Assembly: GCA_018238545.1 (NCBI GenBank)
Contig: JABCTC010000002.1
Location: 78,423-142,422 of the forward strand
Direction: 5' to 3'
DNA from: Candidatus Heimdallarchaeota archaeon
GTDB taxonomy: Archaea; Asgardarchaeota; Heimdallarchaeia; Heimdallarchaeales; Heimdallarchaeaceae
Length of the DNA stretch: 64,000 nucleotides
Part shown: positions 27,787-34,564 of the stretch, one piece after another
Layout: each line of letters starts with the position of its first letter
Numbering within the stretch: position 1 is the stretch's first letter
Translations under genes and position numbers: made by a program
Notes under the pieces: model-generated
Told to the model about the DNA's origin: nothing
Seen by the model: only the letters and a program-made list of their open reading frames with translations
Database searches by the model: none

Positions 27787-27797
27787 TCTTTTTTTTT
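27787..27797 (+). terminator. Oligo-T tract after the LarA-family gene
   Basis: T-run a few bases after TAA, at a convergent gene junction. Confidence 0.5.
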
Positions 27798-28053
27798 AAA
27801 TTTCTAAAGTGTCTTCTGGCCACATTTTTTCAACTATCTCAGAATTACATTTCATGCATAGATTCTTCTTTTGTATTATTCCATCTCTATCAGTTGAAAA
27901 ATTCTGAATTAACCCTCGATCGCATAGAATGTCCGATTTGCACTCAGGACAATAAAAATACCGACCTTGTTGTTTTGGAGACCAAAGATATTTACTACAT
28001 GAAGCGCAACGATTTCGAAAATCACATTTGAGATGTTGAGCTATTATAACCAA
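27796..28053 (-). CDS. Small Cys-rich putative zinc-binding protein
   Basis: CASC, CPEC, CMKC plus two further Cys and a His. Confidence 0.7.
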   Translation of the reverse strand: MVIIAQHLKCDFRNRCASCSKYLWSPKQQGRYFYCPECKSDILCDRGLIQNFSTDRDGIIQKKNLCMKCNSEIVEKMWPEDTLEI

Positions 28054-28057
28054 ATTC

Positions 28058-28285
28058 TTAATCCTCCTTCTTCATTAACCAGTCGTGATAATCTCTTTTT
28101 CTTTGACGTTCCTTACGATCTGATTCTTCATCAGATTCACCCATTTCCTTTTTAAATTCAGAGCGAATTGTAGACCTTACAGAATCATATTCTCCTCTCT
28201 TAAAAGATAAACCACAGTCTAGACAAACCATAAAAGGAGCTTTATATTTTACTTCTCCCCCACAATCGGGACACCGAGCCATCAT
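28058..28285 (-). CDS. Small zinc-ribbon protein with charged C-terminal helix
   Basis: CPDCGG..CLDCG; SD-like AAGGTGA upstream. Confidence 0.8.
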   Translation of the reverse strand: MMARCPDCGGEVKYKAPFMVCLDCGLSFKRGEYDSVRSTIRSEFKKEMGESDEESDRKERQRKRDYHDWLMKKED

Positions 28286-29066: not shown

Positions 29067-30257
29067 TTACTTAGCTGACATAATTTCTTTTAGATTCTCT
29101 AATAGAATTCTTATCTCTTCTTTGGAATTATATAAGTGTGTAGAAATCCTGACTAAGTCATTATACTTCTGTTCATACATAAACAGATGGGAACATAGGG
29201 CACCGCTTCTGGAAGTGATATTATTCGTATCTTCTAAAATCATCGCTACATCATGAGCTTCGAATTTGTCACTTCCAAATGAAATGATAGGACCATATTC
29301 TGCTCCATCAACTTCCATTAAGGTTATGTTCGGAATGTTTTGTAGTTCCTTCCTAAGTAACAAATTAAGTTGTTTTTCATGAGTTTGAATTTTCTCTAAA
29401 CCTATATTAGACAAAACTTTCAAACTGTTGGATAAAGCTACTATCCCAGCAACATTGATAATACCTGGTTCAAATTTTGCATCAGATCTTTCTAAAACGT
29501 AAAGGTATTCTTCTAAAGCTATAATAGAACCCCCACCAACGAGCAAAGGATCCATGCGTTTATACATCTCAGGATTGGTGATATGAAAGGCGGTACCTTG
29601 TGGACCTAGAGCACCTATACAACCAGATGATATAACTAAATCTGGTAAATTCGCAGAGAAATCAATAATTTCATGTCCTATAGTTTGGCTTATATCCAAG
29701 AATAATAAAGCCCCCAAATCTTTGCACAATTTACTTATTCCTACCCAGTCTCTCTTTACACCATTTGTGACTGCTAATGAGGAAAGCAAGACAATATCTC
29801 CTTCTCTTTCAATTTTCTCTTGTATAGATTGAAAGAGATTAGTTTCTTCCTCAATTGTTAAATAATTGATTTTAGTGCCAAATGTATTATGAACTCTTAT
29901 CGCAGGAGCAAGTATGGAATGTTCTTCCAACATGCTTGAAATTATCTTTCTCTCTTTCATTTTATCTAAAGAAAATAAAGCATTTGTCAGAGCGATTTCT
30001 CTGGTAGGAAAGAAGGAAACGTTTGATTCAGAAGAATTGAAAAAGTTCCTAATCTCATTTCGGGATACTTCAATTACCTTGGGAGCTGCAGAAGCTTCTT
30101 GACTCATGCTTCGAACAGCTGCTCCATTTACCTCTTTATAGTATGAAATCATCTTGTTCAAAGAAGTGACAGGCATCTTTCCCATTGTTGCAGAATCGAG
30201 GTAAATTTTACCCTCAGGTATTGTAAACTCTTCACCAAACCTTGTGATATGTGACAT
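29067..30257 (-). CDS. SufS-like class V aminotransferase homologue lacking the PLP lysine
   Basis: YLDSAT, EEHS, DISQ, GGGSI, FEPG, RSGALCSH; SGHK site reads SSGCIGALGPQG. Confidence 0.85.
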   Translation of the reverse strand: MSHITRFGEEFTIPEGKIYLDSATMGKMPVTSLNKMISYYKEVNGAAVRSMSQEASAAPKVIEVSRNEIRNFFNSSESNVSFFPTREIALTNALFSLDKMKERKIISSMLEEHSILAPAIRVHNTFGTKINYLTIEEETNLFQSIQEKIEREGDIVLLSSLAVTNGVKRDWVGISKLCKDLGALLFLDISQTIGHEIIDFSANLPDLVISSGCIGALGPQGTAFHITNPEMYKRMDPLLVGGGSIIALEEYLYVLERSDAKFEPGIINVAGIVALSNSLKVLSNIGLEKIQTHEKQLNLLLRKELQNIPNITLMEVDGAEYGPIISFGSDKFEAHDVAMILEDTNNITSRSGALCSHLFMYEQKYNDLVRISTHLYNSKEEIRILLENLKEIMSAK

Positions 30258-30433: not shown

Positions 30434-31624
30434 TTAAATTTCTTCCATTATGTTTTTTATTGTGTCAATAAATGTCTTTATCTGCTCTTCAGTGTTATAA
30501 ATATGGGTAGATAATTGTACTAGTGAATTCTGCCCAATTTCTTCCATAAACAGATGTGAACATAAAGCTCCACTTCGAACAAAAACATTCTGAATATCTT
30601 CTAGGATTATTGCAATATCATGAGAATCAACAGATTCACTTCTGAAAGAGAGAATAGGACCATTTTCAATGCCATCTAGATTAACTAATTCGATGTTTTG
30701 GATGTTCTCCAACCCCTCAACAAGTTGTCTTCTTAGTTTCTTTTCATGATTTTTAATCAATTCTAATCCAATATCATTGAGAAGTTGTAAACTTTTTGAT
30801 AACCCTACAACAGCTGCTATATTAATAGTTCCTGTTTCGAATTTATTGTTCCAATTACTGAGTTTGTAATTACTTTTGCTCAAAGAAATGATGGAACCAC
30901 CACCAACTAACAATGGTTTCATTTCATCATTAATTTCCTCTGATACAAATTGAAATGCTATACTTTGTGGTCCTAGTGCACCACTAGTACTTGATGATAG
31001 TACAACATCAGGCATGACTCTGCTAAAATCCATGCTCTCATGTCCAACAAGGTAACTCATGTCCATAATAGTTCGAATATTGTTATCTTTACAAAATTTA
31101 GAGATACTTTCCCAATTGCGTTTTATACCCATACCTAGAGTTAAAGCTGAAAATAGGAAAATAGATGAATCTTTTGAAATTCTTTCTTGAAGCGCGTCTA
31201 GAAGACTTTGTTCGTCATTCATCGATAAATAATTAATATTAGATCCAGTAAGTTCCTTGAATTTTATAGCTGGACCAATAATTGAATGATCTTCCAAAAC
31301 ACTCATGATTAAGTTGCTCTCTTTATTTGAAGAAATAGAAAATAAAGAGTTAAGTACTGCAGTTTCCCGTGAGGGTAAGAAAGATAGTTGTTTTGGACTA
31401 ATTTTGAAAATTTGTGCTATATTTTCTCTTTCTGTTTCTAGAACCTTAGAAGTTTTTATTGCATATTTGTGAGTTCCTCTATTTACTCCTCCCCCCTCGG
31501 AGTTGTAGAAATCACATATTGCCTTCAAGGTTATTTTTGGCATTTTCCCTATGGTTGCAGAATCTAAATAGATTTCATCCTTAGGAATATCAAATTCATC
31601 TTGGATTCTAGAAGCTAAAGTCAT
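30434..31624 (-). CDS. Second SufS-like homologue lacking the PLP lysine
   Basis: YLDSAT, VNRG.H, EDHS, FETGT, RSGALCSH; SGHK site reads SSSTSGALGPQS; likely start ATG 31624. Confidence 0.85.
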   Translation of the reverse strand: MTLASRIQDEFDIPKDEIYLDSATIGKMPKITLKAICDFYNSEGGGVNRGTHKYAIKTSKVLETERENIAQIFKISPKQLSFLPSRETAVLNSLFSISSNKESNLIMSVLEDHSIIGPAIKFKELTGSNINYLSMNDEQSLLDALQERISKDSSIFLFSALTLGMGIKRNWESISKFCKDNNIRTIMDMSYLVGHESMDFSRVMPDVVLSSSTSGALGPQSIAFQFVSEEINDEMKPLLVGGGSIISLSKSNYKLSNWNNKFETGTINIAAVVGLSKSLQLLNDIGLELIKNHEKKLRRQLVEGLENIQNIELVNLDGIENGPILSFRSESVDSHDIAIILEDIQNVFVRSGALCSHLFMEEIGQNSLVQLSTHIYNTEEQIKTFIDTIKNIMEEI

Positions 31625-31709
31625 AAACAAATGCTGGAAGAGGTTTTCAGTTATTAACATTTGTTTTACACCACCATTTTTTTATATATTTTCTAAAAAT
31701 GTACATTAG

Positions 31710-32165
31710 ATGGCTATCAAAGCAGAGAAATATGAGAAAAATATTAGTGCATCTATCGAGAAGATAATTGCTAAATATTCAAATTTATTGCCTAATTTAT
31801 CCAAACATAAGGATAGCAAAATTAACAAAGACTTATGGGGAATAAGATCAGATTTAGAGTATTTAATTGTAGAAATGAAACATCTTCTCAAAAAAGATCT
31901 CATCGAAGAAAGATGGCAAAAGAATTTTTTGAATGAATTGAAGGGTACTGGGTCAAAAACCAAAGCAATTCCAATGCTTAATGAATATTCTAAAACAAAA
32001 ACAAGCCTAATTGCATTATTTACTAAAGATAAAGAGCAATGTTATAGATACTTATGGAAACTGAAAGAGACAATAACTGTTGTTCTAGCTGCTTTTCCAA
32101 CTGAGCGTTTTTCATGGAAGAATGGTAAATTGGTAAAAGAAAACGAAGAGATTTTCGAAATTTAA
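31710..32165 (+). CDS. Hypothetical all-helical protein
   Basis: 151-aa ORF with ATG, no recognised motif. Confidence 0.7.
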   Translation: MAIKAEKYEKNISASIEKIIAKYSNLLPNLSKHKDSKINKDLWGIRSDLEYLIVEMKHLLKKDLIEERWQKNFLNELKGTGSKTKAIPMLNEYSKTKTSLIALFTKDKEQCYRYLWKLKETITVVLAAFPTERFSWKNGKLVKENEEIFEI

Positions 32166-32219: not shown

Positions 32220-32714
32220 ATGAGTATGAGTCCAACTAGAAAGGAATTTCCTGATGATAAAGATAACATCAGGGAAGCTATGAAACTAGAACGTTTCGTG
32301 TGTCCTACCAGAGAAATAAATTATCCCTGTGTGATTTGTAAAGAATGCAGGTTAATGGATTTGAAGCAATTTGCTTTGAAGAATGGATTCATCGAAAAAA
32401 CAAAAAATTCCAGTTTGATATCGCTTATATTGGAAATGCGGGATCCTTTTGATGATATGTTGTTAAAACGATTAACTCTATCTTTGGCAGATGCTACAGG
32501 GATTATTCAAAAAGAACCGGAGCCAGGTTTTTCTATTACTTTCTATTTATCTGACGCTTTACTTGAAAAAATAGAAGAAAAAGAGAAATTGGTGGAATTT
32601 ATTGCAGACTTTCAGCACAGATTTCTATCTGAAACCATTGCAGCAAGAAGCGCATTAAATAAATGGGAAAGAACGACTACTCAAAGACTAATCTGGGATA
32701 TGAGTATAAAATAA
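32220..32714 (+). CDS. Arp2/3 complex subunit 4 (ARPC4) homologue
   Basis: Colinear similarity to ARPC4: IREAMKLERF~LQAALCLENF; FIEKTKNSSLISL~LIEGSINSVRVSI; IIQKEPEPGFSITFYL~ILRRKPVEGYDISFLI; KEKLVEFIADF~KHKLVDFVIHF. Confidence 0.82.
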   Translation: MSMSPTRKEFPDDKDNIREAMKLERFVCPTREINYPCVICKECRLMDLKQFALKNGFIEKTKNSSLISLILEMRDPFDDMLLKRLTLSLADATGIIQKEPEPGFSITFYLSDALLEKIEEKEKLVEFIADFQHRFLSETIAARSALNKWERTTTQRLIWDMSIK

Positions 32715-33980: not shown

Positions 33981-34564
33981 ATGCAAATGAGTTTAAGATG
34001 TAAGGTATGTAATGATACGATCAAAATTAAAGAACGAAAATTAGGTCTTGTAGATAGAAGATATTGTTCTGTCCGTTGTAGGATTATTGGTCTGAGAGTT
34101 CCCACGCTAGTATTAGGATTAGCTTTCATCGGTATCTATTTCGGAATATCATTGCCCTTCATTCATTCAGATAAAGATTTGTGGCCTATCTTTATTTTTA
34201 TGTTCCCGTTTATTATCGCTGGCTTAACTTTTCTGTGTGTTAGTGTAGCCGGTTTTGTTTCCAAAGCGAGAAAAAATCAAGAGTTAGCACAAAAATAATA
34301 TAATTGCATGTTTTGTGGTAACAATATTTCTGAAATTATTTCAAAGGGTGCTTGGTGTGTATGAAATGTGGAAACAAAACACCATTCTGTAATCTCTGTA
34401 ATAAGATTATCAATAAATATGAAGATATTACAATAATCAAACCTTGCGGTCAGGTTTTTCATCGAGATGAACTTTTGGACTGGACTGAAAAAAATAAAAA
34501 TTGCCCTAAATGTAAAGGAAAAATAAAGGAACTTTCATTTGATTTGAAAGACATAAAGAGTTGA
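33981..34564 (+). pseudogene. Disrupted Zn finger-2TM-Zn ribbon-RING gene
   Basis: After TAA 34296-34298 the same frame continues YNCMFCGNNISEIISKGA, then the -1 frame gives LVCMKCG..CNLC..PCGQVFH..W..CPKC. Confidence 0.7.

What the first reader, a model, noticed from the sequence alone, without database searches (positions are those of the whole stretch)
32220..32714. ARPC4 (Arp2/3 subunit) homologue with a four-cysteine cluster
Seen: end-to-end colinear similarity with ARPC4, including the long C-terminal helix. The segment matching eukaryotic SSQVVERHNKPEVE reads CPTREINYPCVICKEC (C-x8-C-x2-C-x2-C). Known: ARPC4 and ARPC2 are related and pair through their C-terminal helices; ARPC4-like genes have been reported in a few Asgard genomes, so presence alone is not new. 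Inference: a metal-binding, possibly homodimeric, actin-filament-binding ancestor. No actin gene lies in this window.
Basis: partly seen in the sequence, partly recalled or inferred. Interest (0 to 1): 0.78.

Follow-up and report, generated by a model that had tools for sequence, protein, structure and literature searches.

The report
Asgard ARPC4 relative, likely actin-binding dimer
This archaeal gene encodes a true, already catalogued relative of ARPC4, a core piece of the machine that branches actin filaments in our cells; here it stands alone, probably binds a metal and pairs with itself, and it keeps the residues that grip actin, one of which changes in step with its contact residue on actin across related archaea.

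Summary
Confirmed. The 164-aa ORF, from a Heimdallarchaeaceae genome, is a full-length ARPC4 homologue (Pfam 9e-9; model vs 1K8K_F Z 16.4, 151 residues aligned). The family is in 95 of 399 Asgard genomes, nearly always single-copy; 89 of 92 members keep four cysteines in the segment eukaryotes made Cys-free. No ARPC2, ARPC3 or ARPC5 was found (searches without a positive control) and no actin lies nearby. A homodimer through swapped C-terminal helices scores 0.85 against 0.00 for the best control, possibly from memory of ARPC2/ARPC4. Presence in Asgard is published, and this scan has reported the family, its cysteines and the dimer on other DNA at least six times. New here: the eukaryotic mother-filament contacts N154 and R158 are kept (N147, R151). 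Across 66 genomes R151 covaries with its known partner, actin D80: top of 200 variable actin columns, pair rank 6-7 of 19,200. Only four independent losses support this, so it is suggestive. Best reading (0.5): a metal-stabilised homodimer that binds the side of actin filaments without nucleating branches. The metal (zinc or iron-sulfur) is unresolved.

The parts
32220..32714 (+). Gene for a stand-alone ARPC4-family protein, 164 aa (P0001)
32301..32348 (+). Four-cysteine knuckle C28, C37, C40, C43; probable metal site, in place of the invariant eukaryotic loop of ARPC4 residues 27-43
32385..32687 (+). Core matched by Pfam ARPC4 (residues 56-156), including N63, S64, D75 and D78, equal to ARPC4 N68, S69, D80 and E83
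32610..32699 (+). Long C-terminal helix (residues 131-160); predicted to swap between two copies and pack on helices 76-93 and 117-127 of the partner
32646..32672 (+). Helix stripe R143, N147, R151, equal to ARPC4 K150, N154, R158; N154 and R158 contact mother-filament actin D80, E83, T126 in the eukaryotic branch junction
   Evidence: (PMC10918085)
32189..32195 (+). TATAAAA 25-31 nt before the ATG at 32220; possible archaeal TATA box of a leaderless transcript (consensus match only)
   Evidence: sequence; spacing from general knowledge of archaeal promoters

Best explanation
The protein is an Asgard descendant of the single gene that later duplicated into ARPC4 and ARPC2. Steps: (1, shown) it has the ARPC4 fold over its whole length. 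(2, inferred, 0.85) four cysteines bind a structural metal, zinc more likely (about 0.6) than an iron-sulfur cluster (about 0.25), that shapes the loop which in eukaryotes is Cys-free. (3, predicted, 0.8) two copies pair through antiparallel C-terminal helices, as ARPC2 and ARPC4 do. (4, inferred, 0.6) the R143/N147/R151 stripe on the helix binds subdomain 1 of filamentous lokiactin at D80/E83/T126, as ARPC4 binds the mother filament. (5, inferred) it does not hold Arp2/Arp3-like subunits, so it is a side-binder that stabilises or cross-links filaments, not a branch nucleator. A two-fold symmetric dimer cannot use both sites identically on one polar filament, so it would either bind one filament with one site or bridge two antiparallel filaments.
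For: Fold: Z 15.9-16.9 to ARPC4 chains, Z about 6-10 to ARPC2 chains, next fold 5.2. A joint archaeal-plus-ARPC4 profile reaches ARPC2 (E 0.001) and aligns the K..N..R stripe with K..H..R of the ARPC2 helix and EPEEGY with the first ARPC2 domain. Cysteines: 89 of 92 members have four or more in the segment; spacing varies (8-2-2, 9-2-2, 8-2-3, 9-2-5, 7-7-0), as expected of ligands held by a metal. Dimer: ipSAE 0.85 against best control 0.00; the mark was reached by 20 of 30 solved homodimers and 1 of 23 monomers; runs agree in 100% of contacts, pLDDT at least 89; the pass may come from memory of the solved ARPC2/ARPC4 pair. No second paralogue to pair with. Actin: ARPC4 R158 salt-bridges actin D80 and E83, N154 bonds E83 and T126 (PMC10918085); isolated ARPC2/ARPC4 binds filaments with micromolar affinity (PMC9894260). 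The genome's main actin keeps D80, E83, T126. In 66 genomes with both genes: R151 with D80 46, neither 14, discordant 3+3; D80 is the top actin column for R151; R151, K143 and N147 are the top three of 96 family columns for D80; pair rank 6-7 of 19,200; D80 stays first in all 14 leave-one-family-out tests. The second, 82%-identical actin of this genus has lost D80 and T126.
Against: The covariation rests on four independent losses; independent pairs give 4 pairs (2.1 same direction, 0 opposite), not significant. The R-only grouping was chosen after seeing the data; with N+R, D80 ranks 4 of 246. Counter-examples: G002, G285, G286 keep R without D80; three Kariarchaeaceae-like genomes keep D80 without R; six of 17 families without the gene keep D80. 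ARPC4 R55, another filament contact, has no clear equivalent. No actin gene neighbours any of 40 loci. The gene was not found in the largest Asgard family (135 genomes, probably Lokiarchaeales), whose cultured member has branched, actin-driven protrusions (PMC13716822). No metal or binding measurement exists.
Confidence: 0.5

Rival explanations
1. Same fold and dimer, but its job is not actin binding: it is a general adaptor or regulator (the next-nearest folds are dimeric secretion chaperones), perhaps in small-GTPase or ligand signalling, and it was recruited to actin only in eukaryotes. The K/N/R stripe would then be structural.
For: Roadblock/LC7 gene directly upstream on the same strand in all Hodarchaeales-like loci shown; N-terminal fusion to a domain with a weak ATC_hydrolase hit in families f26 and f27; no actin neighbours; weak fold likeness to type III secretion chaperones, Z about 5; stripe degraded in four lineages.
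Against: The pair named beforehand by the eukaryotic structure (R158-D80) is mutually top-ranked among cross-protein columns; R143 and N147 are outside the predicted dimer interface; chaperone Z scores are at background level.
Confidence: 0.25
2. Proto-Arp2/3: the dimer binds a mother filament and also holds two actin or actin-related subunits, nucleating a branch or new filament.
For: The genome has three actin-family genes; in eukaryotes the ARPC2/ARPC4 helices are the hinge that positions Arp2 and Arp3 (PMC9894260).
Against: ARPC4 residues of the Arp2 interface (E39, R71, R105, R106, K107; PMC3220268) map to I39, L66, Q97, K98, E99 and, apart from K98, are not kept in the family; no ARPC2, ARPC3 or ARPC5 match (no positive control).
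Confidence: 0.12
3. It is a heterodimer with an undetected ARPC2-like partner, closer to the eukaryotic state.
For: ARPC2 is more divergent and barely detected even by the joint profile; the genome is 92% complete; the P34-Arc search has no positive control.
Against: No second match to the archaeal or eukaryotic profile in this genome; single copy in nearly all 95 genomes, including single-contig ones; self-pairing passes.
Confidence: 0.08
4. The cysteines hold an iron-sulfur cluster rather than zinc, making the protein an oxygen- or redox-sensitive switch. This can be true together with the best explanation.
For: Only the middle cysteine of CxxCxxC is commonly replaced (D, E or S in 18 of 92), the position that is dispensable in ferredoxin-type clusters; some members show C-x9-C-x2-C-x5-C, close to the endonuclease III cluster loop (both from my own knowledge); radical SAM and SufS-like genes flank the gene in this family.
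Against: Most members lacking the middle cysteine gain an adjacent CC pair, keeping four thiols; no ferredoxin or Fe-S family hit; weak PDB hits of the segment are to zinc fingers (not significant); the flanking genes are not co-oriented or conserved beyond the family.
Confidence: 0.25

Closest known systems
Eukaryotic ARPC4 (p20-Arc, Pfam PF05856; chain F of 1K8K, 1TYQ, 3DWL, 6W17)
   Same: Whole fold and length, N-terminal helix, long C-terminal helix, N68/S69, D80/E83 and the K150/N154/R158 stripe; about 20% identity.
   Different: Four-cysteine knuckle in place of the invariant SQxVERHNKPEVE loop; Arp2-interface residues and R55 not kept; shorter hairpin; no other Arp2/3 subunit found; predicted to pair with itself.
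Eukaryotic ARPC2 (p34-Arc, PF04045)
   Same: Homologous domains (Z about 6-10; atlas TM 0.64); K..H..R helix and EPExGY motifs align; the predicted dimer mimics the ARPC2/ARPC4 pair.
   Different: ARPC2 has two tandem domains and a C-terminal tail; this protein has one domain and is far closer to ARPC4.
Previously listed Asgard ARP2/3 subunit 4 homologue
   Same: Same family: PMC7444086 says some Heimdallarchaeota may contain a distant ARP2/3 subunit 4 homologue; bioRxiv 10.64898/2026.10.28.762692 lists ARPC4 among catalogue-matched signature proteins; a protein of Heimdall AB_125 is a 77% orthologue.
   Different: I found no paper on the cysteine knuckle, self-pairing, kept filament contacts or any experiment (eight literature searches; subscription journals mostly not held).
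Type III secretion chaperone / YbjN fold
   Same: Similar alpha/beta arrangement, Z up to 5.2.
   Different: Background-level scores, 6-14% identity, no long swapped helix; no evidence of shared function.

Membership tests
ARPC4 family (PF05856) | Score above Pfam's curated cut-off | tested here: met
   35.5 bits vs 22.2, E 9.2e-9; 42 of 50 family members match at E up to 0.5
ARPC4 family (PF05856) | Single alpha/beta domain with long C-terminal helix, full-length structural match | tested here: met
   Z 16.4, rmsd 3.0, 151 aligned to 1K8K_F; Foldseek E 5.6e-9
ARPC4 family (PF05856) | Invariant eukaryotic loop NFxSQxVERHNKPEVE | tested here: not met
   Replaced by the cysteine knuckle; only L, F, N and P remain
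ARPC4 family (PF05856) | Mother-filament contacts N154, R158 (and R55) | tested here: met
   N147 and R151 kept, invariant in the close set, 62% and 66% family-wide; R55 has no clear equivalent
Arp2/3 complex subunit (system membership) | ARPC2 partner encoded in the genome | tested here: inconclusive
   No P34-Arc match in this or 399 genomes, but no positive control rang; no second profile hit
Arp2/3 complex subunit (system membership) | ARPC3, ARPC5, ARPC1 present | tested here: inconclusive
   PF04062 and PF04699 not found, no positive control; ARPC1 not tested
Arp2/3 complex subunit (system membership) | Arp2-interface residues E39, R71, R105-K107 | tested here: not met
   I39, L66, Q97, K98, E99
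Arp2/3 complex subunit (system membership) | Binds actin filaments and nucleates branches | not testable with these tools
   Needs biochemistry; indirect covariation only
Four-cysteine metal site | Four conserved thiols in a compact segment | tested here: met
   89 of 92 members; model pLDDT above 90 there
Four-cysteine metal site | Bound metal and its identity | not testable with these tools
   Model coordinates and ligand contacts are not returned

The most novel reading that the evidence does not exclude
Many Asgard archaea, including Hodarchaeales-like genomes near the root of eukaryotes, have a metal-bound ARPC4 homodimer that already binds the side of lokiactin filaments through the same arginine-aspartate contact as modern Arp2/3. 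The filament-binding clamp of Arp2/3 would then predate eukaryotes as a symmetric cross-linker, and branching arose when duplication into ARPC2 and ARPC4 broke the symmetry and the metal loop was replaced.
Probability: 0.45. Interest if true: 0.85.

Novelty: new variant of a known kind. Interest (0 to 1): 0.64.

Why it matters
How the seven-subunit Arp2/3 complex arose is open, and it bears on when engulfment became possible. The Asgard ARPC4 homologue has been a line in signature-protein tables with no function. If it is a self-pairing filament side-binder, it is the missing one-gene stage of the ARPC2/ARPC4 clamp. The analysis gives a small, sharp experiment: one 164-aa protein, two point mutants, and a built-in control, because the same genome has one actin that keeps the contact residues and an 82%-identical paralogue that has lost two of them.

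Tried and rejected
Neighbourhoods of 40 loci from 14 or more families: no actin, Arp or other ARPC gene, no partner conserved family-wide. A second search round with the broader profile added only weak partial hits, taken as noise. P34-Arc, P21-Arc, P16-Arc and profilin searches found nothing but had no positive control. Gene tree with eukaryotic ARPC4: archaeal members group by family and are more diverse than eukaryotic ones, which argues against recent transfer or contamination; the eukaryote attachment is unresolved. Independent-pairs test of covariation: too few pairs. ESM Atlas feature search gave no usable hit. No RNA holder was listed. The sigma-70 scan is irrelevant for archaea. I could not identify the cultured Hodarchaeales strain HC1 among the searched genomes by its actin, so I do not claim it has the gene. 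Two relevant papers were not held.

Full report
Observation. The frame 32220-32714 (+) encodes 164 aa. It has 51 close relatives, all with Pfam ARPC4 and those named from Heimdallarchaeaceae or Heimdallarchaeota, which places the genome. Differences from orthologues fall mostly on third codon positions. The cysteine motif is as described and unique among 3,402 long frames of the genome. There is no actin in the window; the three actin-family genes lie on other contigs.

Homology. Pfam ARPC4 scores 35.5 bits over a cut-off of 22.2. PDB searches give ARPC4 as best hit with the single sequence and at 5e-12 with the family profile; hhalign gives 97.9% over 108 columns. Sequence similarity is significant for about residues 54-161 only. 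The AlphaFold model built on 50 diverse members (pLDDT 94) superposes on ARPC4 from residue 9 to 160 (Z 16.4, rmsd 3.0, 151 aligned; next fold 5.2). ARPC2 chains follow at Z about 6-10. A joint profile reaches ARPC2 at E 0.001 and lines up the helix stripe K..N..R with ARPC2 K..H..R and the motif EPEEGY with the first ARPC2 domain. Sharing features with both subunits fits descent from their common ancestor (inference).

Distribution. The family is in 95 of 399 Asgard genomes and 26 of 85 genera, nearly always once; a broader profile adds none. Named members come from Heimdall-, Kari-, Wukong-, Njord-, Freyr- and Hermodarchaeota labels. It was not found in the largest family (135 genomes, probably Lokiarchaeales, inferred). 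Members group by family in a gene tree, and eukaryotes cannot be placed. Gene neighbourhoods are lineage-specific and contain no actin or ARPC gene. No ARPC2, ARPC3 or ARPC5 match was found, in searches that lacked a positive control.

Cysteines. C28 and C43 are invariant and C37 and C40 above 90% in 50 diverse members. Of 92 members, 89 have four or more cysteines in the segment, with variable spacing; where the middle one becomes D or E an adjacent CC pair appears. The segment sits in register on the eukaryotic loop (N34-x-P36 shared), which is invariant and Cys-free in eukaryotes. A metal site is the simplest reading. Zinc is likelier; Fe-S is not excluded.

Dimer. Two copies with zinc score 0.85 against a best control of 0.00; 20 of 30 solved homodimers and 1 of 23 monomers reach the mark; runs agree in 100% of contacts and pLDDT is at least 89. 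The interface is the C-terminal helix of each chain on helices 76-93 and 117-127 of the other, the arrangement of ARPC2/ARPC4 (PMC9894260). The pass may therefore come from memory of that structure. The lack of any paralogue to pair with is separate support.

Actin. In the 2.7 A branch junction ARPC4 R158 salt-bridges actin D80 and E83, N154 bonds E83 and T126, and R55 binds E99 (PMC10918085). P0001 keeps N147 and R151, not R55. The Arp2-interface residues (PMC3220268) are mostly not kept. The main actin of this genome keeps D80, E83 and T126; its 82%-identical paralogue has Q at both 80 and 126, and its orthologues in two other genomes have also lost both. I then paired the family member with the main actin in 66 genomes. 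R151 with D80 occurs 46 times, neither 14, discordant 3 and 3. Weighted by family, D80 is the actin column best correlated with R151 (0.82, first of 200), and R151, K143 and N147 are the three family columns best correlated with D80; the pair ranks 6-7 of 19,200. At family level D80 is first of 371 columns and 0.45% of 2,002 partitions give any column as strong. It stays first when any one family is left out. Limits: four independent losses, a non-significant independent-pairs test, a grouping refined after seeing the data (N+R gives rank 4 of 246), and D80 kept in 6 of 17 families lacking the gene. This raises actin binding from a guess to a likely, testable inference; it does not show it.

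Mechanism. Most likely (0.5): a metal-stabilised homodimer that binds subdomain 1 on the side of lokiactin filaments and stabilises or cross-links them, without Arp subunits. Rivals: actin-independent adaptor (0.25), branch nucleator (0.12), heterodimer with an unseen partner (0.08). The fold is shown; the metal, dimer and actin binding are inferred or predicted.

What is known. The homologue is in the literature (PMC7444086; bioRxiv 10.64898/2026.10.28.762692). This scan has reported the family, the four cysteines, self-pairing and fused forms in other genomes and this stretch in another window; those notes are not independent support. I found no paper on the knuckle or dimer, and no paper or scan note on the R151-D80 covariation. 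It is a member of the ARPC4 family but cannot be filed as a subunit of an Arp2/3 complex.

Verdict. Real feature, new variant of a known kind, interest 0.64: presence is not news, but the residue-level link to actin makes the origin of the Arp2/3 clamp directly testable.

Noticed in passing
window 29067-30257 (-) and 30434-31660 (-): Two tandem class-V aminotransferase (SufS-like) genes; at the usual PLP-lysine motif they read SGCI and STSG with no lysine, while the RSGxxC motif is kept.
   Followed up: partly
window 31710-32165 (+): 151-aa protein of no known family, co-oriented 54 bp upstream; its position is conserved only within Heimdallarchaeaceae.
   Followed up: partly
G000:C52 (L004:1486-2622): Second lokiactin-like gene, 82% identical to the main actin, present in other genomes of the genus, with D80 and T126 changed.
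   Followed up: partly
G000:C42 (L005:1492-2964, -): Divergent actin-related protein of 490 aa with an N-terminal CxxC-like zinc-ribbon extension.
   Followed up: no
L052, L053, L066: Fused form: N-terminal domain with a weak ATC_hydrolase hit, ARPC4-like domain, C-terminal CPxC module.
   Followed up: partly
L046, L047, L074: ARPC4-like domain followed by about 200 aa of linker and a helical module.
   Followed up: no
L041-L044, L059-L062, L071, L072: Roadblock/LC7 gene directly upstream on the same strand in the Hodarchaeales-like family, near EF-1beta-like and CDC48-like genes.
   Followed up: partly
L039, L040, L050, L051, L065, L067, L073: The gene lies beside fibrillarin and Nop5 genes in Kariarchaeaceae-like and Njordarchaeales-like genomes, in varying orientation.
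   Followed up: partly
window 27796-28285 (-): Two small cysteine-rich genes; look-alikes lie next to the ARPC4-like gene in several Heimdallarchaeia loci such as L038, L058 and L069.
   Followed up: no
window 34352-34564 (+): 70-aa stand-alone RING-finger protein (zf-RING_2, E 8.5e-8).
   Followed up: no
G000:C105 and C114: Two two-domain gelsolin genes in the genome; profilin not found with the Pfam model.
   Followed up: no
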